Origin: Bryobacterales bacterium
GTDB lineage: Bacteria > Acidobacteriota > Terriglobia > Bryobacterales > UBA6623
Direction of reading: 5' to 3'
Assembly: GCA_965247515.1 (NCBI GenBank)
Contig: OZ252029.1
Location: forward strand, 6,828,692 to 6,892,691
DNA: 64,000 bases
Part shown: positions 6,322-54,830 of the stretch, piece by piece
How positions within the stretch are numbered: the stretch's first letter is position 1
Layout of the letters: every line of letters starts with the position of its first letter
The notes under the pieces: model-generated
Database searches by the model: none
The model's input: the letters and a program-made list of their open reading frames with translations, nothing else
What the model was told of the DNA's origin: nothing
Translations under genes and position numbers: made by a program

Positions 6322-7106
6322 GCGCCCGCAAATCCAGCGCCCCCAACGAAAGCCTGGCGGCGCAGGCCATCCAACAACAGTGCAAGCTGCTGCGGCTGCC
6401 GACGGTGGGCGCGCAATTCGAGACGTTGGCCAAACAAGCCATACGCGAGAGACAAACGCCGGTCGGCTATCTCGAAGCGCTGCTAAGCGCGGAGTTGGAA
6501 GAGCGCGAGCGACGTACGGTGGATCGTCGCTTACGCGAAGCGCGGCTGCCTCGCATGAAGACGCTCGAGGAGTTCGACTTCTCCGAGACGAAGGCGGTCT
6601 CGGCCCCGCAGCTAACCGAGTTGGCCGAAGGCGGCTACATCGAGAGTTCGGAACCGATCCTGTTTCTCGGCGATTGCGGCACGGGCAAGACCCACCTGAT
6701 GACGGGCCTGTGCGTGGCGGCCTGCCTGCAGAAACGGCGGGTGCGCTTCACCACGGCGTCGGCGCTGGTCAACGAACTCGTCGAAGCCAAGCAGCAAATG
6801 CAGCTGAGTCGAGTGCTCGCACGCTGGTCCCGCTACGAGCTGATTGCGATCGACGAAGTGGGTTACGTGCCGCTCGCGGAGGTGGGAGCGGAGTTCCTGT
6901 TCCAAGTCATCGCTGATCGCGCGGAGAAGGCGGCGCTAATGCTAACGACCAACCTGCCGTTCTCGGAGTGGACGAAGGTGATCCCGAACACACGGCTATG
7001 TAAGGCGCTGTTGGATCGCATCACCGACCGCGCTCACATCATCGAGACGGGCGAGGAGTCCTACCGCTTTCGTAGGACGCTGGCGAAGAAGAAGCGAGGG
7101 CGGTAG
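6318..7106 (+). CDS. istB: IS21 helper ATPase IstB
   Basis: Walker A motif [10 protein letters not shown] and the DnaA-like AAA+ helper architecture. Its start overlaps the istA stop (ATGA). Confidence 0.85.
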
Positions 7107-13267: not shown

Positions 13268-13318
13268 GCCCAACACTGTCGAGTCAGGCGTCGAGACCGC
13301 GACCCGGAGCCGCGACTA

Positions 13319-15220
13319 TAAGGGGCCGTGAAGAAAACCTATTGTCGCGTCGGCGCGCGGGAGCGCCAAGCGCACGCCAAGCTCAGCGCTGCCGAACGCC
13401 GCCCCTGCCGAAACCGCAACTTCTGCGCCTCGACTCCTGATTGACCGCCTGAGCGGCCCGGAAACGGTCGTTTCGGGCCGTTTCCCGGCCCTTTTCGCCC
13501 CCCGAACCGCCGCTACGCCGCCGCTTGCGCCGCCAGCCCGCACTCCGGCCCACGACGCCAGACCAGCCGGATCCAAGCCGCAATGTTGTACGCCAAAACC
13601 CCCCACAAAAGCTCCGATCGCGCCTTCCGCAGCCCTCGTACTCGAAACTTGCGCACCCCCAATCGCTCTTTCAACCAGGCGTTCGGAAACTCCGCCGTCT
13701 CGGACCGCTTGCGATACGCCGCCCGCCCACGCTCGCTCTCCATCCAGCGCCGATGTTTCGCCATCACCGCGTTCTCTTCGCTGCGGCTCAACGTTCGATG
13801 ACCGCTCTTGGGGCAGCACTTGTGTCGCTGTGCGCATTCGCGACAATCAGATGCTTTTGCCTGATACTGCCGATATTTGCGCTTCCGCTTCAGCGACGAT
13901 CGCTGATACGTCAAGGTCCGCTGGGCCGGACACAGAAACGTGTCCGTCGCCTCGTCGTAGATGAAAAACTTCGGCGCGTAGCGCGGCCCAATTCCCGCCG
14001 CTTTCAACGCCGCCTTCGAGCCCTTGTCCGGCGCCGGCGCCGGCGTCGCGTATTCGATTTCAGCGGCTGCCAGCGCCTCGATGTTGGCCTGGTTGGCGTA
14101 GCCCCCGTCCGCTAACACTTGCTTCGGGGTTCGCTCGAAGCGCCCTTCCACATCGTCCAGCGTCGGGGTCAGCTGGCCCGCATCGGAGGCGTTGTTGGTC
14201 AACTCCACGCCGACCACGATCTTCTCTTTGGCTTCGGTCGCCAGCTGCGCGTTGTAGCCGAGTCCCCAACCGCCGTTGGATTCGTGTTGCGGGCGCGCTT
14301 CCGGCTCGCTCTCGCTCACCCGCGCCTGGCGTCGTTGCTCTTCGTCGCGCTTGCCCGCTTCGACCTTGGGCAGTTCCTCCAGCGCCTGCTCCATCCGCTC
14401 GACTCGCTCCCGCAAGGTCCGCTTACGCGCCGCCTGACGCCGCCGATTCGAACCCTCGTCGTCGGCTTCTTCCGAGAGTTGACGCACCGCTTCGCGCGCT
14501 TGTTCGAGATGCCGCTCGAGCGTCGGACGCCTGCGTTGCGACCCGCCCGAGGCTTGCGCCCGGATCCGCGTGCCGTCGACGGCCACCTGCTCGAGATCCA
14601 CCAGCCCCTCTTGACTCAGCAGCGCCAATACCTGTGTCAACAAGTTCTCGAGAGCTTTTGAGTGGAATACCCGAAAATCCGAAAGAGTGTGATGATTGAC
14701 GACCGCCATGCCGCACAACCACTCCAACTCCGGCCGATAGCGGCTTTGACGCGCGATCTCACGCGCCGAGCTCATCCTTTCCGAATACGCCCAGATCCAG
14801 ATCGCGACCAGCAACCGCGGATCCCATGCCGGCCGCCCGGCGGACTCCTTGCGGGTTTCCAGATGAGCAGCGAAGCCGGACAGGTCGAGCATGCCGCTCA
14901 GCTCCCAGATGGCGCGCACCAGATGGTCGGCCGGCACGAGCCGTTCGACGTCGATCGCGGCATAGGTGAATTGGTCGCGATTGGGCTGTCGCAGCTGCAG
15001 TTGGTCAACGGGCACGGCTTGGCGCGGCTTGGCGGGGCGTTGCTCGAGCTCGACTAAGACCTGTTGTTCGCCCATATAATAAGGGCGTTGGACGCCGCCG
15101 CCAAGTTATCCGAACATTCGTTTGCCCTCATGTTTTATCCCATTTTGATCCACTCGCGCCATTCCGAACCGCCCCAGGGGAGCTTCGGCGGCCACGACGG
15201 GTTTATTTCACAGCCCCTCA
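13319..15220 (-). mobile_element. IS5/IS1182-like insertion sequence, copy 1 (about 1.9 kb)
   Basis: Terminal inverted repeats TAAGGGGCTGTGAAATAAACC / TAAGGGGCCGTGAAGAAAACC. Both ends abut REP-like sequence. Near-identical to copy 2 at 46877-48778 in inverted orientation. Confidence 0.8.
13513..15075 (-). CDS. IS5/IS1182-family DDE transposase (520 aa)
   Basis: N-terminal DUF772-like region, DDE core (GYNAQLA..DGGYAN) and a C-terminal Cys cluster. 99% identical to the 47022-48584 ORF. Confidence 0.8.
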   Translation of the reverse strand: MGEQQVLVELEQRPAKPRQAVPVDQLQLRQPNRDQFTYAAIDVERLVPADHLVRAIWELSGMLDLSGFAAHLETRKESAGRPAWDPRLLVAIWIWAYSERMSSAREIARQSRYRPELEWLCGMAVVNHHTLSDFRVFHSKALENLLTQVLALLSQEGLVDLEQVAVDGTRIRAQASGGSQRRRPTLERHLEQAREAVRQLSEEADDEGSNRRRQAARKRTLRERVERMEQALEELPKVEAGKRDEEQRRQARVSESEPEARPQHESNGGWGLGYNAQLATEAKEKIVVGVELTNNASDAGQLTPTLDDVEGRFERTPKQVLADGGYANQANIEALAAAEIEYATPAPAPDKGSKAALKAAGIGPRYAPKFFIYDEATDTFLCPAQRTLTYQRSSLKRKRKYRQYQAKASDCRECAQRHKCCPKSGHRTLSRSEENAVMAKHRRWMESERGRAAYRKRSETAEFPNAWLKERLGVRKFRVRGLRKARSELLWGVLAYNIAAWIRLVWRRGPECGLAAQAAA

Positions 15221-17222: not shown

Positions 17223-17711
17223 CTAAGGTCTTGCAAACGACGTCTGCTGTTCGAACACGTCGACCGGCTTCCACATGCGTTTCTCTTTGTACTCGCGGTA
17301 CTTCGCCGGGTCGGCATCCGGGTTCGGAGTCGGCATTTGGGCGCCGACGGACTTGCGCCAGTCGTGCAATTTGGCTTGCAACTCCCGGGCCTTGTCAGAC
17401 ATCGACTCGGCCAGGTCGCGCGTCTCTGAGATGTCTTCGCGCAGGTCGTATAGCTCCAAGTGGCCGTCCTCGTAAAACTCGAGTAACTTGAACGGCCCCT
17501 CGCGGATGGCCCCATAAGGCGTGCAAGTCTCGACCGGCGTGTGGGCGTTGTAGTGCGGGTAATGCCAATAAATGGGGCCGCGTTCGAACCCCGGCTCGCC
17601 GGTCAGGGCAGGGACCAGGCTCTTGCCGTCGACCTTCGCCGGAGAGTCTACGCCCGCTACTTCGAGTAGGGTCGGGAACAGATCCACGCTCATCGCGGGT
17701 TCGTCGATCAC
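17223..17711 (-). pseudogene. Sulfatase C-terminal fragment (N-terminal catalytic part absent)
   Basis: DLFPTL..GKSL..WHYPHY..LYDL..DP.E..NLA is typical of arylsulfatase C-termini. There is no sulfatase N-terminus upstream. Confidence 0.65.
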
Positions 17712-18205
17712 TGCGGGAGCCTTGCCCGGCTCTCGACCCCGTGAGCCTGCGAGCTCGACCTGTTTTCGGTTGAGACGACTCGTAAACTTGCGATGTGCCG
17801 ACTCTAATCGGCGTGAACCGGACGAAGAATAATGTCGACGCTGTTCCTCGCGAGGATCGAGGCTCCTTTAGGGGCCTCTACATTTTGGAGGTAGACCCCA
17901 AGGTCCCCCTTGGTGCGCAGGGCGGCTAAGTAGGCGCTGCGGATACTTGGCCCCATGGCGGCGAAAACCGGCAAAAATCGGTGTTTTCCCGTGGCGCCGG
18001 GAGAGGGGTGGGTCCCCAATTCTAGGTTAAGGCATGGGGGCTAGGGTTTCAGGTGGGGGCGGCCCTAAGTGATTGAAATGACTTGAGAAAACTGGTTGAG
18101 ACATGGTGTGACGGGGTACGGAGCCGGCGTCGTGACGTTGGACGCTTGGACCAGACCCAAGCGGTCGACTGCTGCAAGAACGATATTCTAGCCCACGGCT
18201 TCAGC

Positions 18206-20192
<1,987 letters not shown>

Positions 20193-28444: not shown

Positions 28445-28535
28445 TGGAGGAGAGTGAGGGAATCGAACCCCCGCGTGCGTCTTCGGCACGTCACCGGTTT
28501 TCGAAACCGGAGCCTTCCCGCTCGGCCAACTCTCC
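28445..28535 (-). tRNA. tRNA-Ser(CGA), class II
   Basis: Hand-folded: acceptor ggagagt/actctcc, anticodon loop ttCGAaa, long variable arm, T-loop ggttcgattcc. Confidence 0.7.
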
Positions 28536-28540
28536 AAATT

Positions 28541-28631
28541 TGGCGGAAGGAGGAGGAATCGAACTTCCGTGGGTTTCTCAACCCAGCCTTGCCTTAGCAG
28601 GGCAGCGCCTTACCGCTCGGCCATCCTTCCG
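28541..28631 (-). tRNA. tRNA-Ser(GCT), class II
   Basis: Hand-folded: anticodon loop ctGCTaa, long variable arm, T-loop gttcgattcc. Confidence 0.65.
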
Positions 28632-28636
28632 TCGAG

Positions 28637-28745
28637 CTGGAGCCCCCTGGGTGGAATCGAACCAGCGGCGATCCCCAACATTCAGCACCACCGAGCAGCG
28701 AGTTTACAGCCCGCTTCCGCGCCATGCGGTACGACCCAAATCAAA
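28637..28745 (-). pseudogene. tRNA-like chimera/pseudogene: a Tyr(GTA)-like 5' half joined to an unrelated T-arm/acceptor 3' part
   Basis: 5' part folds as acceptor–D arm–anticodon arm gcggg-ctGTAaa-ctcgc. The 3' part has ttcgatt with a mismatched T-stem, and its acceptor is not complementary to the 5' end. Confidence 0.4.
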
Positions 28746-28748
28746 GCT

Positions 28749-28826
28749 TGGTACCCCGCCCAGGAGTCGAACCTGGAACAACCGGTTTCTAAGACCGGGG
28801 CGTATGCCAATTCCGCCAGCGGGGCA
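28749..28826 (-). tRNA. Class-I tRNA with anticodon UAG (a Leu codon reader on a short-variable-arm body); noncanonical
   Basis: Acceptor gccccgc/gcggggt, anticodon arm ccggt-ctTAGaa-accgg, 5-nt variable loop, T-arm ccagg-ttcgact-cctgg. Confidence 0.5.
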
Positions 28827-28833
28827 TGAGACT

Positions 28834-28910
28834 TGGTAGCCCTGGAAGGATTCGAACCTTCACTTCTCCGCTCTTGAGGCGGACGCCTCTGCCGATTGGG
28901 CTACAGGGCT
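28834..28910 (-). tRNA. Class-I tRNA with anticodon CAA (a Leu codon reader on a short-variable-arm body); noncanonical
   Basis: Acceptor agccctg/cagggct, anticodon arm tccgc-ctCAAga-gcgga, 5-nt variable loop, T-loop ttcgaat. Confidence 0.5.
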
Positions 28911-28915
28911 GATCG

Positions 28916-28991
28916 TGGTAGGCCCGGAGGGAGTTGAACCCCCAACCTCCCGGGTAAAAGCCGGTTGCTCTGCCGGTTGAGCTACGGACCT
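28916..28991 (-). tRNA. tRNA-Lys(TTT)
   Basis: Anticodon loop ctTTTac (C38 is unusual), D-stem gctc/gagc, T-loop ttcaact. Confidence 0.6.
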
Positions 28992-28998
28992 ACGAAAC

Positions 28999-29072
28999 TG
29001 GTGGACCCGGCGAGACTCGCACTCGCATTCTCCCGCTTGCAAGGCGGGGGCTCTGCATTGAGCTACAGGCCC
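28999..29072 (-). tRNA. tRNA-Ala(TGC) with an atypical T-loop TGCGAGT
   Basis: G3·U70 pair present (gggcctg/cgggtcc), anticodon loop ctTGCaa. The T-loop lacks the canonical TTC. Confidence 0.55.
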
Positions 29073-29073
29073 G

Positions 29074-29148
29074 TGGTGGGTTCGGAAGGATTCGCACCCT
29101 CATCGTGATGATTAAGAATCACCTATTCTGCTGTTGAACTACGAACCC
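29074..29148 (-). tRNA. tRNA-Lys(CTT) with T-loop TGCGAAT
   Basis: Acceptor gggttcg/cgaaccc, anticodon loop ttCTTaa. Confidence 0.6.
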
Positions 29149-29158
29149 AGGTTGAAAT

Positions 29159-29236
29159 TGGTCAGGGCGGTTGGATTTGAACCAACGGCATCCCGCGTCC
29201 GAGGCGGGAACTCTGGCCGGACTGAGCTACACCCTG
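29159..29236 (-). tRNA. tRNA-Pro(CGG)
   Basis: C1-G72, anticodon arm cccgc-ctCGGac-gcggg, T-arm gttgg-ttcaaat-ccaac. Confidence 0.65.
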
Positions 29237-29242
29237 AAAATA

Positions 29243-29317
29243 TGGAGAGTCCTGCGGGATTCGAACCCGCACCCTTTGGTTGGAAGCCAAACATGCTGCC
29301 GTTAACACCAAGGACTC
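29243..29317 (-). tRNA. tRNA-Gly(TCC)
   Basis: Acceptor gagtcct/aggactc, anticodon arm tttgg-ctTCCaa-ccaaa, T-arm gcggg-ttcgaat-cccgc. Confidence 0.65.
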
Positions 29318-29324
29318 TCAGAAC

Positions 29325-29401
29325 TGGCGGACCGTATGGGATTCGAACCCATGACCTCTCGGCTGACAACCGAGCGCGCCACCGGACTGCGCCAACGGTC
29401 C
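29325..29401 (-). tRNA. tRNA-Asp(GTC)
   Basis: Acceptor ggaccgt/acggtcc, discriminator G, anticodon arm ctcgg-ttGTCag-ccgag. Confidence 0.7.
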
Positions 29402-29410
29402 GCTTAAACT

Positions 29411-29450
29411 TTGGATCGGAGACCTGGAATCGAACCAGGATCTGGCGTAC
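29411..29450 (-). pseudogene. tRNA 3' fragment (T-arm + acceptor 3' strand + CCA) with no matching 5' half; it abuts the REP/MITE
   Basis: cctgg-ttcgatt-ccagg tctccga t cca; no complementary tcggaga upstream. Confidence 0.45.
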
Positions 29451-29467
29451 TGGAGCCGCGACCGTGA

Positions 29468-29617
29468 GGGGCTGTGAAAAAATGTCGGGGATCCACTTCC
29501 GGCAAGACGGGCTTGGCATGCCAAGCCCCTACGTCGTTGAAAACAAACGATCGTCCGTAGGGGCGAGGCATGCCTCGACCGTCTTTCGCGCTCAACGGGT
29601 GATTTTTTCACAGCCCC
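29468..29617. mobile_element. 150-bp MITE carrying the IS5-like terminal repeats (GGGGCTGTGAAAAAAT ... ATTTTTTCACAGCCCC). Flanked by a TGA duplication and inserted into one arm of a REP palindrome.
   Basis: Ends match the IS5-like element ends at 15206-15217 and 46880-46895. Both flanks read tga. Removing it restores a 27-bp-arm REP (ggagccgcgaccgtgagggagcggttg / caaccgctccctcacggtcgcggctcc). Confidence 0.75.
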
Positions 29618-29620
29618 TGA

Positions 29621-29689
29621 GGGAGCGGTTGCTGGGATCGTTGACGGCCTACCTTTGACAACCGCTCCCTCACGGTCGCGGCTCCAGTC
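29621..29689. repeat. REP-like palindrome (right arm and loop), the target of the MITE
   Basis: gagggagcggttg ... caaccgctccctcacggtcgcggctcc. Confidence 0.7.
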
Positions 29690-29690
29690 T

Positions 29691-29766
29691 TGGCCGGCAG
29701 GGGAGGACTCGAACCTCCATCCCCCTGACTAACAATCAGGCGCCTTGCCGATTAGACCACCCGCCG
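29691..29766 (-). tRNA. tRNA-Asn(GTT) (loop ttGTTag)
   Basis: Anticodon arm cctga-ttGTTag-tcagg, T-arm ggagg-ttcgagt-cctcc, discriminator G. Confidence 0.55.
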
Positions 29767-29773
29767 GCAAACT

Positions 29774-29851
29774 TGGCGGCCGCGGCTGGAATCGAACCAG
29801 CACTGGCTCCGGGCTTCAACCGGACGCTCTACCGCTTGGAGCTACACGGCC
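29774..29851 (-). tRNA. tRNA-Phe(GAA) (G37 in loop ttGAAgc)
   Basis: Acceptor ggccgtg/cgcggcc, D-arm gctc-caagcggta-gagc, T-arm gctgg-ttcgatt-ccagc. Confidence 0.65.
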
Positions 29852-29860
29852 GCGACAAAC

Positions 29861-29936
29861 TGGAACCGGAGGCAGGAATTGCACCCGCATCACTCAAGTT
29901 CGAAGCCCAGGGCCCTATCTGTTGGACGACTCCGGC
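29861..29936 (-). tRNA. tRNA-Arg(TCG)-like with a weak anticodon stem (1 Watson-Crick + 3 G·U + 1 mismatch) and T-loop TGCAATT; possibly a pseudogene
   Basis: All other arms fold canonically. The anticodon loop is ctTCGaa. Confidence 0.4.
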
Positions 29937-29954
29937 ATGACAAGTGAAAGGTGT

Positions 29955-30028
29955 TGGTTGCGGGAGGCGGAATCGAACCGCCCTTGCTGGCTTATGAGAC
30001 CAGACTGGAGCCACTCCAGCTATCCCGC
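29955..30028 (-). tRNA. tRNA-Met(CAT), elongator or Ile2-type (G1-C72)
   Basis: Acceptor gcgggat/tcccgca, anticodon arm ctggt-ctCATaa-gccag, T-arm ggcgg-ttcgatt-ccgcc. Confidence 0.65.
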
Positions 30029-30081
30029 AACAACTGCGTACGCATATTCAGTTGTCAAGGAGCAATGGCACGGACCGTGCC

Positions 30082-30157
30082 TGGCACAGGGTGGAGGCCT
30101 CGAACCCCCACTTGCGGGTTTGGAATCCGCCGTGCTGCCCGCTTACACCAACCCTGC
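30082..30157 (-). tRNA. tRNA-Trp(CCA)
   Basis: Anticodon loop ttCCAaa, discriminator G, T-loop ttcgagg. Confidence 0.5.
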
Positions 30158-30493: not shown

Positions 30494-31060
30494 ATGAGGG
30501 CCATGAGCGCGACCACAACACTGCTGAGCGTCGAAGAGTACGCCGAGCTTCCCGACGAGGAGTGGCGCAAATGGGAGCTCAGCGACGGCGAGCTGGTTCC
30601 GCGATACGGAGACGAGATGGGGGCCAGAGTCAATCACAACGATGTACGCGGCGTGGCTGAGTATCGCCTGCGTCACTACTTCCTCCAGAACAAGCTCGGC
30701 CGGGTATTGGCCGAGCAGGACTTCCGCCTCGCCGAAGGCGTCGTCCGTCGACCCGACGTGGCCGTCATCTTGAAAGCAAACTCTCACATCCTCGACGACA
30801 ACCCGCCGATCGTACCGGGCTGTCCCGACATCGCGATCGAAGTCGTCTCGCCCAGCAACCGCACCGAGGATACCGAACGCAAGATTGGGCAGCTGCTCTC
30901 GGCGGGCGCAGCGGAAGTGTGGTTGCTGTATTTGGCGCTGCGCAAGGCCGTGGTTCGAACCAAAGACGGTCTGCGAGAAGTGAGCGAGCAGGGCGCTCTC
31001 GAAGCCCCGGATCTGCTACCGGGCTTCCGGTTGCCTTTGGCGGAACCGTTTGACGAGTGA
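30494..31060 (+). CDS. Uma2-family (DUF820) PD-(D/E)xK endonuclease
   Basis: LSVEEYAELPDEE..WELSDGEL..PDIAIEVVSPSN..D is the typical Uma2 signature. Confidence 0.7.
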   Translation: MRAMSATTTLLSVEEYAELPDEEWRKWELSDGELVPRYGDEMGARVNHNDVRGVAEYRLRHYFLQNKLGRVLAEQDFRLAEGVVRRPDVAVILKANSHILDDNPPIVPGCPDIAIEVVSPSNRTEDTERKIGQLLSAGAAEVWLLYLALRKAVVRTKDGLREVSEQGALEAPDLLPGFRLPLAEPFDE

Positions 31061-32795: not shown

Positions 32796-32868
32796 GGTGG
32801 ATAACGGGATTCGAACCCGCGTCCGTCAGCTCCTAAGGCTGATGCTCTTTCCTCTGAGCTATATCCAG
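32796..32868 (-). tRNA. Isolated class-I tRNA with anticodon UAG and a C1·C72 mismatch; noncanonical
   Basis: D-arm gctc-agaggaaa-gagc, anticodon arm tcagc-ctTAGga-gctga, T-arm gcggg-ttcgaat-cccgt, no encoded CCA. Confidence 0.45.
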
Positions 32869-33149: not shown

Positions 33150-33365
33150 GGTCCGAAGCCCCGTCAGGGGCGGCATAACCGTAGCCCACAGCGCGAGCTG
33201 TGGGAAATAGGACTAGCGGGTCCCTTTTACCGTCTTCAGGGCCTTTGTATTCGCGCCGAGGGCGCGAATACAAAGGCCCTGAAGAGGCGGAGCGGAGTCT
33301 TGGCGAATCAAAACCCCCAGCTTGCGCTGGGGGCTACGGTTATGCCGCCCCTTGCGGGGCTCGAA
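33150..33365. repeat. About 215-bp compound palindrome: two inverted copies of a ~100-bp unit, each with two internal hairpins, around a perfect 51-bp central palindrome
   Basis: Outer arms ggggcggcataaccgtagccc.cagcgc.agctg.ggg, central cttcagggcctttgtattcgcgcc-gag-ggcgcgaatacaaaggccctgaag. The mirror ORFs on both strands are artefacts of the symmetry. Confidence 0.8.
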
Positions 33366-33473: not shown

Positions 33474-35460
<1,987 letters not shown>

Positions 35461-36174
35461 GCCGAAGCCCCGGCTCAACTCCGTCGCGCAGCGGCGTCCG
35501 CGCCGTGTTCATCACCATCGCCAGTAGCTGGTAGTACCCCATGATGCCGATCGTGTCGATCACACCCTTCTGGCCGAGATACGACAACAGCCGCGCATAG
35601 GTCGGGTCGCTGACTCCTTGGGTTCGCAGCAGCTCCATACAGAAGTCGTACACGGCCGACTCGTCGTCAGCCATGCGCTCCGGACGTCGTCCGTCGGCAA
35701 CCGCCTCGATAATCGCGGCTCCGAGTCCTTCGCTCTCGGCGATCGGAGCATGCGCGGCCCACTCGTAGTTCTGGGTCCAATGGCGCGCGGTGATCAAGAT
35801 GACGAGCTCGCTCAGGCGCGGCGGTAGGGCGCTGCTGAAGCGCACGTAATCGCCAACGTTGCGCGCCCGGCTCAGCATCTCAGGGCTTCGCAGCAGCGGC
35901 ACGAAGGGCCCGCTCAGGCCAGGTCTGTCGCGCGCCGCTTTGAACTCTTCAACGGCCGCCTTCTGTTCGGCGGTCAACTCACTCTCTGGAATCGGGGGCA
36001 TTCGGTCTTGGGCTGTAAGCGTCATAGCGCAGATAAGGAAGACTAGCGCGCCTGTGACTCGCTCGCCTATCCAAAGTACTCGTCGGTGGTAACTGGTCAT
36101 CATTGGTGTCCTTTGAAGCCAGGCACAGCGCGGTAAGCTTCGTGACGCGGGCGGACATGCCGGCCGGCCGCTAG

Positions 36175-36450
36175 TTATTTATAGAGTGTCAGCACGTCCG
36201 AATCGACCGAATCGAGGTAGTCCATCAGTTGCTTGTGCAACTCCCGCGCTTTTTCCGGTTGGGCGCCGGCCAAGTCTCTTGTTTCGCCTAAGTCGTCTTT
36301 CAAGTTGAAGAGCAGCATCTTGTCTTCGCGCCAGAACTTCACCAGCTTGTAATCGCCCACGCGGATGGCCGTGTGCGGATAGCTGTCGTTGTAGCGGTGA
36401 AACACGAGCCCGGGGTTGGGCCGGTGCACCGAGCCCCGTCCTTCATTCTC
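36175..36450 (-). pseudogene. Second sulfatase C-terminal fragment (about 90 aa)
   Basis: ..YPHTAIRVGDYKL..LFNL.DDLGETRDLA...P....L is a sulfatase C-terminus. The upstream region encodes an unrelated M23 peptidase. Confidence 0.55.
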
Positions 36451-36461
36451 CAGCAAGGCGC

Positions 36462-37160
36462 TCAAGCTCCCGCCGTCAATATCACTGGGCAGAGCCTGTG
36501 TGTAAGATGGATACAATCGCGCTGCCAGGAGCTGAATTTGTCGAAGCCTGGAGCATTCCGAATCTCGAAATGCAGATGAGCAAAGCCGCTCTCGCTGCTA
36601 CCTGTGTACCCGATCAGATCGCCCTTGTTCACAGTTGCATCCTCGACGACGACGGCTTGCGTCAAGTGCATGTAGTTGCTGTGATAGCAGCCAACGTCAT
36701 CGCACGAGGTTTGGCCCGGGCGGAAGTGACGGAGTTGAACCAGCGGGTCTGAGTAGCTGGGGTGACTGCCCGCGATGCGAACGACCCCATCCGCGATAGC
36801 AAAGACAGGCGTACCCTCCGGCGTAGCGATATCAATTCCTCGATGGAAGTCGTAGCGGTCGTCTTCTGAGGCCAGCGGTCGCGGACCGAATGGCGAAGCG
36901 ATGGGCAGATCAGCGAAGGCGGTGGCACCCCACCGCTCTGACGGACAACCGTCGGAATCGATCCAGTTTTGGGGCGGCGCCTCGCTGATCCGCCCGCACA
37001 GAGGCCACGGCGAAGTCGGATCGAACGGTTGCGGCAGCCCGACTCGGGGCCACCCGAGCAGGGCTACTGTGCAAAGACACCAGATGAAAGCAGTGCACCG
37101 AGCGTTCATCTCCATCGCCATCCATGGTGGCACAGGAGACGCCGGAATAGAATAGTACAC
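36462..37160 (-). CDS. M23-family metallopeptidase (LytM-like), secreted
   Basis: HRGIDIA (HxxxD) and HLHFE (HxH) motifs, with a signal peptide. Confidence 0.75.
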   Translation of the reverse strand: MYYSIPASPVPPWMAMEMNARCTAFIWCLCTVALLGWPRVGLPQPFDPTSPWPLCGRISEAPPQNWIDSDGCPSERWGATAFADLPIASPFGPRPLASEDDRYDFHRGIDIATPEGTPVFAIADGVVRIAGSHPSYSDPLVQLRHFRPGQTSCDDVGCYHSNYMHLTQAVVVEDATVNKGDLIGYTGSSESGFAHLHFEIRNAPGFDKFSSWQRDCIHLTHRLCPVILTAGA

Positions 37161-38331
37161 TTGTACTGAATTGCCAGTGGGACTCTAATGACTAGCGATA
37201 GCTAGCCGAGACACCCTTTGCCCAAGTCCACCGTTTCCTGCGTTGGCACAAGGGCGGCCGTGATGATCGCCGACTCGGTGCAAAGCTTGTCGTACTGCGC
37301 GGCAATGGCTTTCACTCGCCGCCGGGAGCACTCAGTAACGAAAGAAGCTCGTTTTCGAACTCCTTTCCGGCACGGGTGGACTGCCGGCGAAGGGGCGCCG
37401 TGCGAAAGCTATCGAGGGCTTGGGAGTAAGCGTTCCTGGCTTCGTCGGGGCGACCCGACAGCGTCAGAATGACGCCCCGCCGATGAAACCAACGTTCCGA
37501 GGCCATTGCAGGACGAATCTGATCGAGCCGGCCCAAGGCGCGCTCAAACCGGTTGAGCGCTAGCTCGATGTCGATTGTGAAGTTAACGAGTGTGAAGATC
37601 GGGCCCAGCCTTTCGATGCCGTCGTCCACTCCGGCTAGTGCGCGAGCGATGTGGGCCGAACCGGCCGAGATGAGGGTCTTCGCTCGCTCCAGATAATACT
37701 CGGGAGTTGGATTGTCCAGACTAGCGATAACCTTGTCGTAATCGGCGGCCGCGGCCCGCGGCTGCTCCAGCTTGGCCAGCAGCCTTGCGCGCGTTAGCAG
37801 GCCCTCGCGGTGGTCCGGCGACGCTTCCAAGAGGCGGTCAAGATCAGCCTTGGCTGCCGGCCAGCGGCCGGCCTCAAAGAACATACGCCCGCGGACGAAG
37901 GGGATTGCAGTTGAATCCGGGCTGAGCTCAGCCGCGCGCCGGTAATCCGCCAGCGCCGAGTCCCAGTCACGGTGGAGACGGTGCAACTCACCTCGCTTGA
38001 TGTAGAGATCGGCGTTGTCCGGGTCTGCGGAGATGCGCTTATCCATGTCTTTCTGGAGTGAACCCCAAGCGTGAGACAGTCGAAATCGGGACAGGTTACG
38101 ATTCACCGCAAAACGCTTGCCTTCTTCGCTGTATCGTCGCACGCTGGTCCTAGCCGGGGAAGCGGAAGCGGGCTCTGCTGGAGAGCAACCGCCAAGGAAT
38201 ACCCGGCCGCAAACTCATCAAGACGATGAGCGCCGGGGGCGGCCGCCAAGGTCGCTCCCGGCTTCTCCAACGCCGGCGATGTCTCCCTGCCCGCCCAGGG
38301 CCCATCGGATTGATAGATTTGCCTATGCCTC

Positions 38332-39290
38332 TCAAAACTCATACTTCGGATTCCTCGCTGCTGTTGCCGCCGGCCGCGCCAGCGCTTCAAACTCCGCCGG
38401 CGGACGATATCCCAACGCCGAATGCAGCCGGCGTTGGTTGTAGATCTCATCAATGAACTCGCCGATCGATGCGCGCGCCTCGTCAAGCGTGCGATAACGC
38501 TGCAACCAAACCTCCTCCGCCTTCAACGTCTTCATGAAACTCTCCGCCCGCGCGTTGTCGTAGGGGTTGCCGCGGCGGCTCATCGAGATGATCGCGCCGT
38601 GCTGCTCCAGCAGCTCGACATAGGCGCTCGAAGCGTACTGTACGCCTTGGTCGGAATGATGCATCCACCCCGCGGCAGGGCGTCTGAGCTCGAGCGCATC
38701 GCGCAACGCCCCTACAGCCAGCTCAGCTTTGAGCGTCGTCCCCAGCCGCCAGCCGACCACGCGTCGCGAGTAGGCGTCCAACACCACGGCGAGGTAGACG
38801 AACGCCTCGCGCAAGCGAATGTAGGTGATATCGGATTGCCACAACTGATCGACGCCGTCCACATTCAGGTGCGCCGCTAGATTCGGATAAACAGGTAAGA
38901 AGTGGTTCGAATCCGTTGTTAGCACGAAGCGCCGCTTGAGTACCGCCAGCAAGTTGTCCTTACGCATCATCCGCAGGACCTTTTTGTGATTGACGAGGAA
39001 GCCTTGGCGGCGCAGCTCGGCCGTCACGCGGCGGTAGCCGTAACGACGATTCTCGAGCGAAATCCGCTGCATGCGGTCACGCAATTCCATGTCGCACTCG
39101 GCGGGCGACGACACGGCGAGCCGGCGATAGAACCCGGCGCGATTCACGCGTCCGAGCTCGCAGGCGTGTTCGACGCTGAGCGAGCCTTTGGCGCTGATCT
39201 GCTCGACGATGGAGTAGATCCGCTCGCGCCACCGGCGTCGTTGGTCGGGGCTGCGAGGTTCAAGGCGCGAAAGGCTTGTCCGAAAAAATC
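38332..39290 (-). CDS. IS3 OrfB (DDE integrase core), reached by a -1 frameshift from orfA
   Basis: rve-domain motifs ..HSDQGVQYAS..NPYDNARAESF... The long ORF seen in the track is a read-through artefact that includes host sequence. Confidence 0.75.
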
Positions 39291-39587
39291 GAGCTCTGCG
39301 GCTTGTTTGCCGAGCAGTCGTTCGAGCTCTGCGATGCGTTCGTCGCGCGGATCGCGAGGGATCTTGGGCGGCGCCGAGCGGCCGGGTTTCGGCCGGCCTC
39401 GCCGCCGGCTCAAGCCGTTGACGCCTTCCTGGCGATAGGCGTCCCGCCAGCGGTACAGCAGGCTGCGCTTGACGTCCAACTCGCGGCTTAGCGCTGTGCC
39501 GCTCTGGCCGGCTAGGAGCCGCCTGGCGGCGGCTTCCTTGAACTCCACCGTGAACTCCCGCGGCTTGCGCGGCTTGAGACTTTCCAT
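39144..39587 (-). CDS. IS3 OrfA (HTH + leucine zipper)
   Basis: MESLKPRKPREFTVEFKEAAARRL.. Ends just after a gatttttt slippery run. Confidence 0.75.
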   Translation of the reverse strand: MESLKPRKPREFTVEFKEAAARRLLAGQSGTALSRELDVKRSLLYRWRDAYRQEGVNGLSRRRGRPKPGRSAPPKIPRDPRDERIAELERLLGKQAAELDFFGQAFRALNLAAPTNDAGGASGSTPSSSRSAPKARSASNTPASSDA

Positions 39588-39777
39588 CCTGGACTCCTTT
39601 CCATTCGCTGAAATTCGTCCCAAATTTCAATGTCTCATTTTTAGGGTTCACTCCATTCAGCCGCTCATGGACGCCCGCGTGGCCGTCTAACTGAACCGGC
39701 CACAGCAGGGCCACGGCCGTCATGAGGACCGAGAGGATTGCTGTTGGAGCCCTTGTCATAAAGATAGATGGTCTCGG

Positions 39778-48778: not shown

Positions 48779-49370
48779 CGGTCGCGGCTCCGGGGCGCCC
48801 GCCCGGCCGCAGCGCATCGAGATAGATACTCATACCGCGCCCGCACAACCGTATGACAGCAGGGTCCCTTGCGCCCTTTGCCAGACCCGCGGCGTCGCAA
48901 TCGACACTCATGTCAACGTAGCCCCGAGCCTTCGAGCTTCTAAGCGACTCCGCCAGCTCGTCTCTCACGTCGTCAATCAGGCGCTGGAGCTTCACCTGAA
49001 AGGCATCGTCGGTAACGGACAACTCCTGAACGAGGTTGTTGAGAGGACACCCCAGTTCCGATATCTTCTCGTCGCCGCTGCTCATCCCCTCGAGAATCGC
49101 CGCAATGCCCTCCACCGGATCCGGCGAGCTCCTCAGCGGTCCGAGCCACGCCCGATCGATATACGATCGAATCACTTCATCTACGATCGCACGACCCAGC
49201 GCCGCCTTGTTCTCGAAGTGATAATAGAACGCTCCCTTCGTCAATCCGATCCCATCGAGAATGCGATCAAGGCTTGCGGCGCGAAAGCCCAGGCGGCGCA
49301 CCTGCTCGTAACTGGCAGCGAGAATCTGATCCCGCGTCTCAGGCGTTTGAGTCGATGCTTTCGCGATCAT
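48657..49370 (-). CDS. TetR-family transcriptional regulator. Its C-terminal ~40 codons run into the REP/IS end.
   Basis: N-terminal TetR HTH ..LGFRAASLDRILDGIGLTKGAFYYHF.. Confidence 0.7.
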   Translation of the reverse strand: MIAKASTQTPETRDQILAASYEQVRRLGFRAASLDRILDGIGLTKGAFYYHFENKAALGRAIVDEVIRSYIDRAWLGPLRSSPDPVEGIAAILEGMSSGDEKISELGCPLNNLVQELSVTDDAFQVKLQRLIDDVRDELAESLRSSKARGYVDMSVDCDAAGLAKGARDPAVIRLCGRGMSIYLDALRPGGRPGAATVRGREENLLSRRRAGAPSARQAQRCRTPPLPKPQLLRLDS

Positions 49371-54647: not shown

Positions 54648-54830
54648 GTGCGTCGCCGCCCCGGAGCCGTGCGCGTCAGCAAGCGGTTGCCCGCGGTTGC
54701 GACAACCGCTCCCTCACGGTCGCGGCTCCTGGGCGGCCGTTTTCATCCCTTTGGGTGGGCCGTCAGGCCCATGGGGCATCGCGCCGTCAGATCAGAGCCG
54801 CGACGGCGAGGGAGCGGGGTCCGCATTCAT
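54648..54830. repeat. REP-like elements (two arms plus spacer)
   Basis: ccggagccgtgcgcgtcagcaagcggttg ... caaccgctccctcacggtcgcggctcc ... gagccgcgacggcgagggagcgg. Confidence 0.7.

What the first reader, a model, noticed from the sequence alone, without database searches (positions are those of the whole stretch)
28445..30157. Seventeen-unit tRNA gene array containing class-I tRNAs with Leu-type anticodons (UAG, CAA), T-loop variants and pseudo/chimeric units
About 1.7 kb contains back-to-back minus-strand tRNAs with almost no spacers. Canonical units: Ser(CGA), Ser(GCU), Lys(UUU), Ala(UGC), Lys(CUU), Pro(CGG), Gly(UCC), Asp(GUC), Asn(GUU), Phe(GAA), Met(CAU), Trp(CCA).

Noncanonical units:
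- Two units fold as perfect class-I cloverleaves (5-nt variable loop) but carry anticodons UAG (28749-28826) and CAA (28834-28910). In bacteria these normally occur only on class-II tRNA-Leu bodies, which have a long variable arm.
- One unit (28637-28745) is a chimera of a Tyr-like 5' half and a foreign 3' part.
- One Arg(UCG)-like unit has an almost entirely G·U anticodon stem.
- Ala, Lys(CUU) and the Arg-like unit have T-loops TGCGAGT/TGCGAAT/TGCAATT instead of TTCRANY.
- A stray tRNA 3' fragment sits at 29411-29450.

This matches the 'tRNA gene arrays' seen on mobile elements and phages rather than a housekeeping tRNA operon.

The anticodon/body mismatches suggest either mistranslating tRNAs or tRNAs evolved to escape anticodon nucleases.
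Basis: seen in the sequence. Interest (0 to 1): 0.75.

Follow-up and report, generated by a model that had tools for sequence, protein, structure and literature searches.

The report
Decaying mobile tRNA array, short-arm tRNA-Leu
This is a horizontally acquired, partly decayed cluster of 15 tRNA genes in an Acidobacteria-like genome, and its two odd-looking "short" leucine tRNAs belong to an already described family of genuine leucine tRNAs rather than being mis-wired adaptors.

Summary
ARAGORN and Rfam find 15 minus-strand tRNA genes at 28445-30157. All 15 encode CCA, and spacers within the two runs are 1-52 nt. There is also a decayed tRNA-Tyr remnant and a 37-nt tRNA 3' fragment. The 240-bp gap is a MITE with perfect 22-bp terminal inverted repeats.

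The UAG and CAA units really are 5-nt-variable-loop cloverleaves. They are not anticodon/body mismatches. They carry Leu-type D-arms, U8, A14, G18G19 and A73. A covariance model built from 62 short-arm tRNA-Leu scores them 85.7 and 77.2 bits; the next best tRNA in the window scores 59.

Short-arm ("type I") tRNA-Leu is known. Streptomyces coelicolor tRNA-Leu(CAA) is leucylated by its LeuRS (PMC6614811). A short-loop tRNA-Leu(UAG) was noted in a mycobacterial tRNA cluster (PMC6582537). I found the type in arrays from Anabaena (4/4 Leu), Kovacikia (5/5) and a Mycobacterium plasmid (2/2), and in phage contigs.

The locus is best read as a degraded long tRNA array (L-array) of probable phage origin. 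Mistranslation is not supported; nuclease escape is untested. Two side observations:
- The three G55 T-loops co-vary with D-loops lacking GG.
- A lone mosaic tRNA(UAG) lies at 32796-32868.

The parts
30082..30157 (-). tRNA-Trp(CCA). First gene of the array in the transcription direction. CCA encoded.
   Evidence: ARAGORN. Rfam 45.2 bits. Trp is the best isotype HMM with the anticodon masked.
29955..30029 (-). tRNA(CAU), elongator-Met or Ile2 type. The anticodon stem lacks the three G-C pairs of an initiator. CCA encoded.
   Evidence: ARAGORN. Rfam 44.3 bits with permissive filters only.
29861..29936 (-). tRNA-Arg(UCG), probably decaying. Weak anticodon stem: 1 Watson-Crick pair, 3 G.U pairs, 1 mismatch. 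T-loop UGCAAUU (G55).
   Evidence: drawing. Rfam 34 bits. RNAfold z = 0.18 and the anticodon stem is absent from the centroid structure.
29774..29851 (-). tRNA-Phe(GAA). The Phe-Asn adjacency is shared with the Anabaena, Nostoc and Kovacikia L-arrays.
29691..29766 (-). tRNA-Asn(GUU).
29449..29688 (.). 240-bp MITE-like insertion with perfect 22-bp terminal inverted repeats (ACTGGAGCCGCGACCGTGAGGG) and internal palindromes. It splits the array in two.
   Evidence: the repeat finder I2. A 2-mismatch copy of the same repeat lies at 48773-48793, inside the end of the IS copy 46879-48798, and a 1-mismatch copy lies at 54711.
29412..29448 (-). Orphan tRNA 3' fragment: T-arm CCTGG-TTCGATT-CCAGG, 3' acceptor strand, then TCCA. 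It abuts the MITE, and its 5' half is missing.
   Evidence: Sequence read. Partial CM hit covering the T-arm only (29423-29440). No tRNA call.
29325..29401 (-). tRNA-Asp(GUC).
   Evidence: 64.2 bits.
29243..29317 (-). tRNA-Gly(UCC).
29159..29236 (-). tRNA-Pro(CGG).
29074..29148 (-). tRNA-Lys(CUU), elbow variant: T-loop UGCGAAU (G55) and a D-loop AACAGCA without GG.
28999..29072 (-). tRNA-Ala(UGC) with G3.U70. Elbow variant: T-loop UGCGAGU and D-loop AAUGCA.
28916..28991 (-). tRNA-Lys(UUU).
28834..28910 (-). Type I (short-variable-loop) tRNA-Leu(CAA). It has an A1-U72 pair, U8, A14, G18G19, a 3-bp D-stem, a 5-nt variable loop and A73-CCA.
   Evidence: Type-I-Leu CM 85.7 bits. LeuI HMM 55.1 against 34.6 for the next isotype, anticodon masked. 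65-69% identical to actinobacterial and Anabaena tRNA-Leu(CAA).
28749..28825 (-). Type I tRNA-Leu(UAG). It has a G1.U72 pair, a Leu-type D-arm GCGGAAUUGGCAUACGC, a 5-nt variable loop and A73-CCA.
   Evidence: CM 77.2 bits. 82% identical to the Leu(UAG) of phage contig L130. The 20-nt D-arm is shared with 24 long and 24 short tRNA-Leu in metagenome and viral contigs. The cloverleaf is the minimum-free-energy fold.
28638..28737 (-). tRNA-Tyr(GUA) remnant. The 5' acceptor strand, D-arm and anticodon arm are homologous to L-array tRNA-Tyr. The 3' part is decayed or foreign and only ends in CCA.
   Evidence: Alignment with the Anabaena and Mycobacterium array tRNA-Tyr. No stable fold, z = +0.98. 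No tRNA hit. The Tyr-Ser(GCU) adjacency is conserved in L124, L041 and L139.
28541..28630 (-). tRNA-Ser(GCU), class II with a long variable arm.
28445..28535 (-). tRNA-Ser(CGA), class II. Last gene of the array.

Best explanation
The locus is a horizontally acquired long tRNA gene array, of the kind called an L-array or tRNA array unit. It was probably seeded by a phage tRNA cluster. It sits in a mobile-element-rich stretch of an Acidobacteriota (Bryobacterales-like) genome and is partly decayed.

Fifteen co-oriented tRNA genes, all with encoded CCA and short spacers, would be transcribed as one or two polycistronic precursors. These would be cut into individual tRNAs that add extra (supernumerary) copies to the host pool.

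The two class-I tRNAs with Leu anticodons are genuine leucine tRNAs of the type I (short-variable-loop) tRNA-Leu family. LeuRS does not read the anticodon. In the systems studied it relies on U8-A14, the D/T elbow and the acceptor end, all of which these genes keep. They should therefore be charged with leucine and read UUG and CUA/CUG as leucine. That is no mistranslation.

Decay is visible in four places:
- a MITE insertion with loss of the 5' half of one tRNA;
- a tRNA-Tyr remnant;
- an Arg(UCG) gene with a collapsing anticodon stem;
- absence of the HNH endonuclease gene that usually accompanies such arrays.

Shown: gene content, folds, family membership by sequence and structure, relatedness to other arrays and to a phage cluster, and the insertions. 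Inferred: transcription, processing, leucylation by the host LeuRS and any physiological role.
For: Array: 15 tRNAs at 28445-30157, all with CCA.

Context:
- IS transposases, two 100% identical inverted group II introns and truncated genes surround it.
- The host is assigned to Acidobacteriota from MtnA homologues, 74-83% identical to Acidobacteria and Bryobacterales MAG proteins.

Relatedness to known arrays:
- The adjacencies Phe-Asn, Leu(CAA)-Leu(UAG) and Tyr-Ser(GCU) are shared with the Anabaena 7120 trn operon, a Nostoc MAG and the Kovacikia plasmid.
- BLAST alignments span two tRNAs plus the spacer.
- Phage contig L130 carries Pro-Tyr-Leu(caa)-Leu(tag)-Ser-Ser. It has an HNH endonuclease directly upstream, plus terminase, primase and helicase genes.

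Type I Leu membership:
- CM R1 scores 85.7 and 77.2 bits, against at most 59.0 for the other tRNAs of the window.
- U8, A14, G18G19, A58 and A73 are invariant in 62 family members and present in both units.
- With the anticodon masked, LeuI is the best isotype HMM for both.

Known biology:
- S. coelicolor type I tRNA-Leu(CAA) is leucylated by ScoLeuRS (PMC6614811).
- A cluster-encoded short-loop tRNA-Leu(UAG) was noted in Mycobacterium (PMC6582537).
- 23 of the 26 tRNAs of the Anabaena trn operon are aminoacylated in vivo (PMC8421152), and all four of its Leu genes are 75-78 nt.

Specific to Leu: in 70 loci with at least 8 tRNAs, Leu was 134 short and 32 long, Ser 79 long and 1 short, Tyr 33 long and 2 short.

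Decay.
Against: - The array has 15 intact genes, fewer than the 20 required by the Tran et al. definition.
- No HNH endonuclease, GOLLD RNA, att repeat or phage gene was found near it.
- No consensus sigma-70 promoter lies upstream of the Trp gene.
- No close orthologue of the whole array exists in the collections searched. The best hits are 77-85% identical over single tRNAs or pairs.
- E. coli LeuRS and one Streptomyces LeuRS do not charge type I tRNA-Leu (PMC6614811). Charging therefore depends on the host enzyme, which is not in the window.
- The anticodon-masked HMM separates Leu(UAG) only weakly: LeuI 33.0, Gln 31.2, LeuII 30.2.
- Most loci used for the counts were selected because they contain a type I Leu. 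In a less biased set, the other Leu genes of arrays were 6 short and 5 long.
Confidence: 0.85

Rival explanations
1. Mistranslating adaptors. The UAG and CAA units would be bodies of another isotype that acquired Leu anticodons. They would be charged with a non-Leu amino acid and insert it at Leu codons.
For: In Anabaena, two operonic tRNAs (Phe, Ile) migrated aberrantly in acid gels, which the authors discuss as possible misacylation (PMC8421152).
Against: - The bodies are Leu-like: the D-arm of the UAG unit matches the E. coli tRNA-Leu D-arm as I recall it, and its 20-nt core occurs almost only in tRNAs with Leu anticodons.
- The type-I-Leu CM places both units 18-27 bits above every other tRNA of the window.
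- U8, A14 and A73 are present.
- The family is leucylated in Streptomyces (PMC6614811).
- No mistranslation was detected in Anabaena (PMC8421152).
Confidence: 0.03
2. Anti-defence tRNA island. The array would persist because its tRNAs differ from the host's in ways that make them resistant to tRNA-targeting nucleases or toxins, so that translation continues when host tRNAs are cut. The differences would include loss of the long variable arm of tRNA-Leu, G55/A18 elbows and anticodon-loop changes. This concerns function and does not exclude the best explanation.
For: - Phage tRNAs evade anticodon nucleases through anticodon-loop mutations (PMC10264068) and counter retron and other defences (PMC11555353).
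- Mycobacterial arrays are now discussed as putative anti-defence systems (PMC12803027).
- The closest relative of part of this array is in a phage.
- Short-arm Leu is common in viral contigs.
- Lys(UUU), the classical PrrC target (my own knowledge), is present.
- The neighbouring Uma2 protein matches the PADLOC defence candidate PDC-S03.
Against: - No tRNA nuclease was identified in the window.
- The host's own tRNAs are unknown, so no difference from them can be shown.
- Type I tRNA-Leu is also a stand-alone chromosomal gene in many Actinomycetota, so it is not in itself an evasion device.
- A bacterial Schlafen nuclease was reported to cut a phage tRNA better than the host one (PMC13056530).
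- The array is decaying.
Confidence: 0.2
3. Silent relic. The array would be a non-functional leftover of an old phage or plasmid insertion, no longer transcribed, and simply not yet eroded.
For: - A MITE sits inside the array, with an orphan 3' fragment, a Tyr remnant and a failing Arg(UCG).
- No promoter consensus lies upstream.
- There is no HNH gene.
- The surrounding genes are fragments: P450, Big_9, beta-lactamase-like and sulfatase C-terminal pieces.
Against: - Thirteen or fourteen genes keep clean cloverleaves, scoring 44-64 bits in Rfam, and all 15 keep CCA.
- The three G55 T-loops are matched by D-loops without GG. This looks like a compensated state rather than random damage.
- L-arrays are typically silent until induced (PMC8421152, PMC10272220), so a missing constitutive promoter is expected.
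Confidence: 0.25

Closest known systems
[quoted passage not shown] Examples: the Anabaena sp. PCC 7120 trn operon on plasmid delta, arrays on Mycobacterium plasmids, chromosomes and phages, and the Acidithiobacillus ICE arrays (PMC8421152, PMC4758250, PMC5966550, PMC12803027).
   Same: - Many different co-oriented tRNA genes with spacers of a few nucleotides and no periodic pattern.
- Location among mobile elements.
- Presence of pseudo-tRNAs.
- Shared adjacencies Phe-Asn, Leu(CAA)-Leu(UAG) and Tyr-Ser(GCU).
- Arg(UCG), which Tran et al. single out as over-represented in arrays.
- All Leu genes are short-armed, as in Anabaena (4/4), Kovacikia (5/5) and the M. chimaera plasmid (2/2).
   Different: - Only 15 intact genes, against 20-43 in the described arrays.
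- No HNH endonuclease gene upstream or inside, and no GOLLD RNA.
- Interrupted by a MITE.
- The host phylum, Acidobacteriota, is listed in PMC8421152 among phyla showing only accretive arrays. I did find Acidobacteriota MAG arrays (L012, L036).
- Regulation is unknown; no TrcR-type repeats were looked for.
Type I (short-variable-loop) tRNA-Leu of Actinomycetota. The prototype is Streptomyces coelicolor tRNA-Leu(CAA) (PMC6614811).
   Same: - Leu anticodon and a 5-nt variable loop.
- 3-bp D-stem with the motif GUAGCCCAAnnGGcAGAGGC.
- U8-A14, G18G19 with U55C56, and A73-CCA.
- The CAA unit is 65-69% identical to Streptomyces and Saccharothrix tRNA-Leu(CAA).
- Both units score 77-86 bits on a CM built from the family.
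   Different: - Here the genes are array-borne and supernumerary, in an Acidobacteriota genome, rather than stand-alone chromosomal genes.
- The first pair is A1-U72 or G1.U72 instead of G1-C72.
- The UAG unit has a D-arm of the type also found on long-arm tRNA-Leu.
- Charging by the host LeuRS is untested. It needs a compatible leucine-specific domain according to PMC6614811.
Phage tRNA clusters next to an HNH endonuclease. The example here is IMG/VR contig IMGVR_UViG_3300047678_000047 (locus L130).
   Same: The order Leu(CAA)-Leu(UAG)-Ser-Ser with a Tyr nearby. The Leu(UAG) genes are 82% identical, including the unusual GGCAUACGC D-loop. Both encode CCA and have short spacers.
   Different: - The phage cluster has six tRNAs, an intact Tyr and an HNH gene, and sits between the replication and packaging modules.
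- The window has no phage genes.
- The Ser anticodons differ: UGA and GCU in the phage, GCU and CGA in the window.
Mitochondrial type I tRNA-Leu, for example human mt-tRNA-Leu(UUR).
   Same: A leucine tRNA without the long variable arm.
   Different: It has different identity rules and a dedicated mitochondrial LeuRS. ScoLeuRS does not charge it (PMC6614811). The resemblance lies only in architecture.

Membership tests
tRNA array unit (definition of Tran et al. 2016, PMC4758250) | At least 20 tRNA genes in the unit | tested here: not met
   15 intact tRNA genes plus 2 remnants.
tRNA array unit (definition of Tran et al. 2016, PMC4758250) | Density of at least 2 tRNA genes per kb | tested here: met
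   15 genes in 1713 bp, about 8.8 per kb.
L-array (Santamaria-Gomez et al. 2021, PMC8421152) | Long, non-periodic run of co-oriented tRNA genes of many isotypes with very short intergenic distances | tested here: met
   All 15 genes are on the minus strand and carry 15 different anticodons. Spacers are 1-18 nt, with three exceptions: a 52-nt spacer between Met and Trp, the Tyr remnant and the MITE.
L-array (Santamaria-Gomez et al. 2021, PMC8421152) | Common ancestry with other L-arrays, shown by a conserved central gene order | tested here: inconclusive
   Three adjacencies are shared with cyanobacterial arrays. Some alignments span two genes plus the spacer at 70-77% identity. The overall order is rearranged, and about 0.3 shared adjacencies would be expected by chance (my rough estimate).
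L-array (Santamaria-Gomez et al. 2021, PMC8421152) | HNH endonuclease gene upstream of or embedded in the array | tested here: not met
   No HNH domain was found in the roughly 30 ORFs scanned with Pfam between 20 and 42 kb.
L-array (Santamaria-Gomez et al. 2021, PMC8421152) | The genes are supernumerary and duplicate the host's housekeeping tRNA set; acquired horizontally | not testable with these tools
   Only 64 kb of the genome is available. The mobile-element context and the phage relative are consistent with horizontal transfer.
L-array (Santamaria-Gomez et al. 2021, PMC8421152) | Silent under standard conditions and induced by translational stress; the tRNAs are aminoacylated | not testable with these tools
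   This needs RNA data.
Type I tRNA-Leu (PMC6614811) | Leu anticodon on a tRNA with a short (4-5 nt) variable loop | tested here: met
   ARAGORN folds. Rfam hits are 74 nt with no insertion. The minimum-free-energy fold agrees.
Type I tRNA-Leu (PMC6614811) | U8-A14 tertiary pair, an identity element shared by both types of S. coelicolor tRNA-Leu | tested here: met
   U8 and A14 are present in both units. Both positions are invariant in 62 family members, and the search pattern did not impose them.
Type I tRNA-Leu (PMC6614811) | Canonical elbow (G18G19 with U55C56, and U54-A58) and an A73-C74C75A76 end | tested here: met
   Both units have GG in the D-loop, a UUCGAnU T-loop, and A73 followed by an encoded CCA.
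Type I tRNA-Leu (PMC6614811) | Sequence and structure similarity to family members beyond that of a generic tRNA | tested here: met
   CM R1 scores 85.7 and 77.2 bits. Other tRNAs of the window score 19-59 bits, and the generic Rfam model gives these two units 61.4 and 55.9 bits. With the anticodon masked, LeuI is the best HMM for both, though by a narrow margin for the UAG unit.
Type I tRNA-Leu (PMC6614811) | Leucylation by the resident LeuRS, which depends on its leucine-specific domain | not testable with these tools
Anticodon-shifted or chimeric (mistranslating) tRNA | The body belongs to an isotype other than the one specified by the anticodon | tested here: not met
   For the two array Leu units. 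The feature may apply to the lone tRNA(UAG) at 32796-32868, which lies outside the array.

The most novel reading that the evidence does not exclude
Loss of the long variable arm of tRNA-Leu may be a recurrent, selected hallmark of mobile tRNA arrays and phage tRNA clusters across phyla, and not a lineage quirk of Actinomycetota. The arrays examined span Cyanobacteria, Actinomycetota, Acidobacteriota and Planctomycetota. In them tRNA-Ser and tRNA-Tyr keep their long arm.

The same exact Leu D-arm occurs on both long and short bodies, which suggests repeated long-to-short conversions. The payoff could be resistance to toxins, nucleases or modification enzymes that recognise type II tRNAs. It could instead be independence from host factors.

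The co-varying A18/G55 elbow seen in three tRNAs of this array would be a second adaptation of the same kind.
Probability: 0.15. Interest if true: 0.65.

Novelty: new member of a known kind. Interest (0 to 1): 0.3.

Why it matters
The finding does not overturn anything. It removes a tempting misreading: a Leu anticodon on a class-I body does not imply mistranslation. It places the locus in two described categories, long mobile tRNA arrays and type I tRNA-Leu.

It adds three modest points.
- It is an example of such an array from an Acidobacteriota-like genome, caught in the act of decay through a MITE insertion, a Tyr remnant and a failing Arg gene.
- Across the arrays fetched here, short-arm tRNA-Leu is frequent while Ser and Tyr keep their long arm. 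The array literature I could search mentions this only in passing (one sentence in PMC6582537).
- G55 T-loops in array and phage tRNAs co-vary with D-loops that lack GG.

If the Leu pattern reflects selection, it would bear on two questions: why mobile elements carry their own tRNAs, and how LeuRS tolerance shapes their host range.

Tried and rejected
Searches that found nothing useful:
- Exact-protein look-ups to locate the source contig failed for Band7, Uma2, the group II intron RT and the IS transposase.
- BLAST of the array and of 24 kb around it against plasmids and phages gave only single-tRNA or intron-level matches, with no orthologous array.
- BLAST against all fetched loci found no close relative of the whole array.
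- No att-like direct repeat of the lone tRNA's 3' end was found, and no island borders.
- No HNH endonuclease was found and no GOLLD or other array-associated RNA.
- No PADLOC hit to a tRNA nuclease was found.

Methods that did not work well:
- blastn-short nearest-neighbour typing of isotypes was uninformative, because it was dominated by T-arm matches.
- Global-alignment nearest neighbours were biased by the excess of Leu in my loci. I replaced both with per-isotype HMMs, anticodon masked, and with a CM.
It therefore did not return the source genome and gives no frequency estimate.

Literature I could not reach:
- Alamos et al. 2017 (PMC6103686) is not held.
- Puerto-Galan and Vioque 2012 did not surface in a title search.
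- PMC8421152 has no supplementary text held. I could not establish which three Anabaena operon tRNAs are the pseudogenes.

Idea considered and not adopted: short-arm Leu evades Schlafen-type nucleases that are specific for type II tRNAs. The bacterial Schlafen studied cuts anticodon arms of several tRNAs, and no preference for type II tRNAs is reported.

Full report

Yes. ARAGORN finds 16 tRNA genes in the 64-kb window. Fifteen of them lie back to back on the minus strand between 28445 and 30157. In the transcription direction they are Trp(CCA), Met(CAU), Arg(UCG), Phe(GAA), Asn(GUU), Asp(GUC), Gly(UCC), Pro(CGG), Lys(CUU), Ala(UGC), Lys(UUU), Leu(CAA), Leu(UAG), Ser(GCU) and Ser(CGA).

Rfam's tRNA model hits 14 of them at gathering threshold with its default filters. 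With permissive filters it hits all 15, at 34-64 bits. Every one of the 15 encodes its 3' CCA. Spacers are 1-18 nt, with three exceptions: a 52-nt spacer between Met and Trp, a 118-nt gap and a 289-nt gap.

**2. The non-canonical units**

- Leu(UAG) at 28749-28825 and Leu(CAA) at 28834-28910 are 77 nt including CCA. They have a 5-nt variable loop and a 3-bp D-stem. For Leu(UAG) this cloverleaf is also the thermodynamic optimum, holding 67% of the ensemble.
- The 118-nt gap holds a tRNA-Tyr remnant at about 28638-28737. Its 5' acceptor strand, D-arm and GUA anticodon arm align with the tRNA-Tyr of the Anabaena array. Its 3' part has no complementary acceptor strand. It has no stable fold and no tRNA score.
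- Arg(UCG) has an anticodon stem of one Watson-Crick pair, three G.U pairs and a C.A mismatch. It has the lowest Rfam score, 34 bits. RNAfold does not form this stem. It is probably decaying.
- Ala, Lys(CUU) and Arg have T-loops UGCGAGU, UGCGAAU and UGCAAUU.
- The orphan 3' fragment is at 29412-29448.

It has perfect 22-bp terminal inverted repeats. A 2-mismatch copy of the same repeat lies just inside one end of an IS copy elsewhere in the window, at 48773-48793 within 46879-48798. The array has therefore been hit by a transposable element, with loss of the 5' half of one tRNA.

**3. What the class-I Leu tRNAs are**

That premise is out of date.

A literature search found Wang and colleagues (NAR 2019, PMC6614811). 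Streptomyces coelicolor has a type I (short-variable-loop) tRNA-Leu(CAA) that its single LeuRS leucylates. U8-A14 is an identity element shared by both types of its tRNA-Leu. E. coli LeuRS does not charge this tRNA. Behra et al. (PMC6582537) remark in one sentence that the tRNA-Leu(UAG) of a Mycobacterium mucogenicum tRNA cluster has a short variable loop.

I scanned one genome per species with a pattern made of three parts: a Leu-type D-loop, an NAR anticodon and a class-I spacing to the T-loop. Most hits are stand-alone 74-77-nt genes with UAA, CAA or UAG anticodons in Actinomycetota chromosomes. The rest are arrays in Planctomycetota, Acidobacteriota, Nostoc and others. The same pattern also saturated the viral collection.

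Both window units carry the family's hallmarks: U8, A14, G18G19, a canonical T-loop and A73-CCA. In an alignment of 62 family members, U8, A14, G18G19, A58 and A73 are invariant. The search pattern had imposed A73 and the GG, but not U8 or A14.

A covariance model built from these 62 sequences scores Leu(CAA) at 85.7 bits and Leu(UAG) at 77.2 bits. The next best tRNA in the window, Lys(UUU), scores 59.0 and the others score 19-53. The generic Rfam tRNA model gives the two units only 61.4 and 55.9 bits.

I also built per-isotype profile HMMs from about 1,500 tRNAs in the fetched loci, with anticodons masked. They put LeuI first for both units. The margin is clear for CAA (55.1 against 34.6) and narrow for UAG (33.0 against 31.2 for Gln and 30.2 for LeuII). 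They recover the anticodon's isotype for 12 of the 15 array tRNAs.

The 20-nt D-arm of the UAG unit, CTGGCGGAATTGGCATACGC, was found verbatim in 45 metagenome stretches and 15 viral stretches. Among the ARAGORN-called tRNAs that carry it, 48 of 49 have a Leu anticodon: 24 long-armed (82-88 nt) and 24 short-armed (75-77 nt). These are leucine tRNAs that lack the long arm, not foreign bodies with a Leu anticodon. The mistranslation reading is not supported.

**4. What the array is**

It matches the long tRNA arrays (L-arrays, or tRNA array units) described in Cyanobacteria, Actinobacteria, Acidithiobacillus and phages (PMC8421152, PMC4758250, PMC5966550, PMC12803027).

BLAST of the array against plasmids picked up a Mycobacterium chimaera plasmid array and the Kovacikia minuta plasmid array through the Leu-Leu-Lys segment. 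In both, every Leu gene is short: 2 of 2 and 5 of 5.

The Anabaena 7120 trn operon was fetched by accession, independently of my pattern. It has four Leu genes of 75-78 nt. In that operon, 23 of 26 tRNAs are aminoacylated in vivo and found on polysomes (PMC8421152). The operon is repressed by TrcR until translation is stressed (PMC10272220).

The window shares three adjacencies with these cyanobacterial arrays: Phe-Asn, Leu(CAA)-Leu(UAG) and Tyr-Ser(GCU).

The closest relative of the 3' block is IMG/VR contig L130. Its order is Pro-Tyr-Leu(caa)-Leu(tag)-Ser-Ser, and its Leu(UAG) is 82% identical to the window's. That contig is a real phage. It has large and small terminase subunits, primase, helicase, NinB and NinG, and an HNH endonuclease immediately upstream of the tRNAs.

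The short arm is specific to Leu.
- In 70 fetched loci with at least 8 tRNAs, Leu was 134 short and 32 long, Ser 79 long and 1 short, Tyr 33 long and 2 short. These loci were selected for containing a type I Leu.
- In a less biased set, the other Leu genes of 16 arrays were 6 short and 5 long. Ser was 16 long and 0 short; Tyr was 6 long and 1 short.

Short-arm Leu is therefore frequent but not universal in arrays.

**5. Context and host**

MtnA encoded at 343-1374 has its named best relatives in Acidobacteria and Bryobacterales MAGs, at 74-83% identity. One unnamed metagenome protein is 99% identical. GC content is about 62%.

The surroundings are rich in mobile elements and gene fragments:
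- two 100% identical 1,996-bp group II introns in inverted orientation at 18197-20192 and 33474-35469;
- two inverted IS copies at 13299-15218 and 46879-48798;
- DDE_5, IS3 and IS21 transposase genes, and truncated P450, Big_9, beta-lactamase-like and sulfatase genes.

No HNH endonuclease, phage gene, att repeat or GOLLD RNA accompanies the array. No consensus promoter precedes it.

**6. How it most likely works**

Shown: the gene content, the folds, the family membership, the relatedness to other arrays and the insertions.

Inferred from the Anabaena and Streptomyces work: the genes are transcribed as a polycistron, now possibly two because of the MITE. They are processed to CCA-ended tRNAs and add redundant isoacceptors to the pool. 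The two Leu tRNAs are charged with leucine, provided the host LeuRS tolerates a short variable loop.

Whether the array still functions is open. The remnants, the MITE and the failing Arg gene argue for erosion. The clean cloverleaves and intact CCA ends of the other 13-14 genes argue against long neglect.

**7. Two side observations**

First, the three UGC (G55) T-loops are not random damage. Across all unique tRNAs in my loci, 15 of 18 tRNAs with a UGC T-loop lack GG in the D-loop, against 11 of 1,360 with UUC (Fisher p = 7e-26). The D-loops instead read A-Y-A-G-N-A, which would make position 18 an A. Orthologous Glu(CUC) genes of Anabaena and Kovacikia share this state. It is a compensated A18/G55 elbow variant, and it is enriched here: 3 of 15 in this array against about 1% elsewhere.

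Second, the lone tRNA(UAG) at 32796-32868 is the only real candidate for an anticodon/body mismatch.
- It is class I, with a C1xC72 mismatch, C73 and no CCA.
- Its acceptor and T-arm are closest to an array tRNA-His.
- Its D-arm is identical to that of phage tRNA-Arg(UCU).
- Its anticodon arm is identical to that of long-arm phage tRNA-Leu(UAG).
- It does not score as type I Leu: 48.3 bits on the CM, and LeuI is not among the top four isotype HMMs.
- A near-consensus sigma-70 promoter (TTGACA-17-TATTGT with a TG extension) lies about 120 nt upstream.

Its identity is unresolved.

**8. Verdict**

The locus is a new member of known kinds. Interest is modest.

Noticed in passing
window 32796-32868 (-), promoter-like site 33015-32987 (-): A lone 73-nt class-I tRNA with anticodon UAG. 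It has a C1xC72 mismatch, C73 and no encoded CCA. It looks mosaic: the acceptor and T-arm resemble tRNA-His, the D-arm is identical to phage tRNA-Arg(UCU), and the anticodon arm is identical to long-arm phage tRNA-Leu(UAG). It does not score as type I tRNA-Leu (48.3 bits, against 77-86 for the array Leu units). A near-consensus sigma-70 promoter lies upstream. Its amino-acid identity is unresolved.
   Followed up: partly
window 28999-29072, 29074-29148, 29861-29936; also L002, L088, L122, L124, L139, L167, L180, L203, L207, L232: T-loops reading UGC (G55 instead of U55) co-occur with D-loops that lack the GG dinucleotide and read A-Y-A-G-N-A instead. The counts are 15 of 18 against 11 of 1,360 unique tRNAs (Fisher p = 7e-26). 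This looks like a compensated A18/G55 elbow variant in array and phage tRNAs. Three of the 15 tRNAs in this array have it.
   Followed up: partly
window 29449-29688; related ends at 48773-48793 and 54711-54731: A 240-bp MITE with perfect 22-bp terminal inverted repeats sits inside the tRNA array. A 2-mismatch copy of its terminal repeat lies just inside one end of the IS copy at 46879-48798; the sister IS copy is at 13299-15218 (DDE_Tnp_1_6 transposase).
   Followed up: partly
window 18197-20192 (+) and 33474-35469 (-): Two 100% identical 1,996-bp group II introns (RT/maturase ORF of 443 aa) lie in inverted orientation and bracket 13.3 kb that includes the tRNA array. Each lies next to a sulfatase C-terminal fragment, at 17223-17711 and 36175-36516. 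This suggests a recent duplication or inversion, or intron homing into paralogous genes.
   Followed up: no
metagenome and viral loci L245-L303: The exact 20-nt D-arm CTGGCGGAATTGGCATACGC occurs on 24 long-arm (82-88 nt) and 24 short-arm (75-77 nt) tRNA-Leu genes with various Leu anticodons. This suggests repeated conversion between type II and type I bodies, or recombination, within mobile tRNA clusters.
   Followed up: partly
L002 2748-2823 (Kovacikia minuta plasmid pA): The type I tRNA-Leu(GAG) of the Kovacikia array has the anticodon loop CCGAGGA, with C33 in place of the near-universal U33.
   Followed up: no
window 33157-33204 (-): A sub-threshold match to the Acido-Lenti-1 RNA motif (30.1 bits against a gathering score of 37, E = 5e-4) lies between the lone tRNA and the group II intron. 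It is consistent with an Acidobacteriota origin.
   Followed up: no
window 30494-31060 (+): A Uma2-family putative endonuclease gene lies directly upstream of the array. It matches the PADLOC phage-defence candidate PDC-S03 (E = 7e-14).
   Followed up: no
window 38054-38488 and 59752-60187: A 437-bp direct repeat at 100% identity, 21.7 kb apart. The first copy overlaps the start of an IS3-family transposase gene at 38332-39759.
   Followed up: no
window 1513-4599 (-): A DnaE2-like error-prone DNA polymerase III alpha subunit (1,028 aa) is followed by IS21 istA/istB genes at 4809-7106. This is another sign that the window is a plastic, mobile-element-rich region.
   Followed up: no
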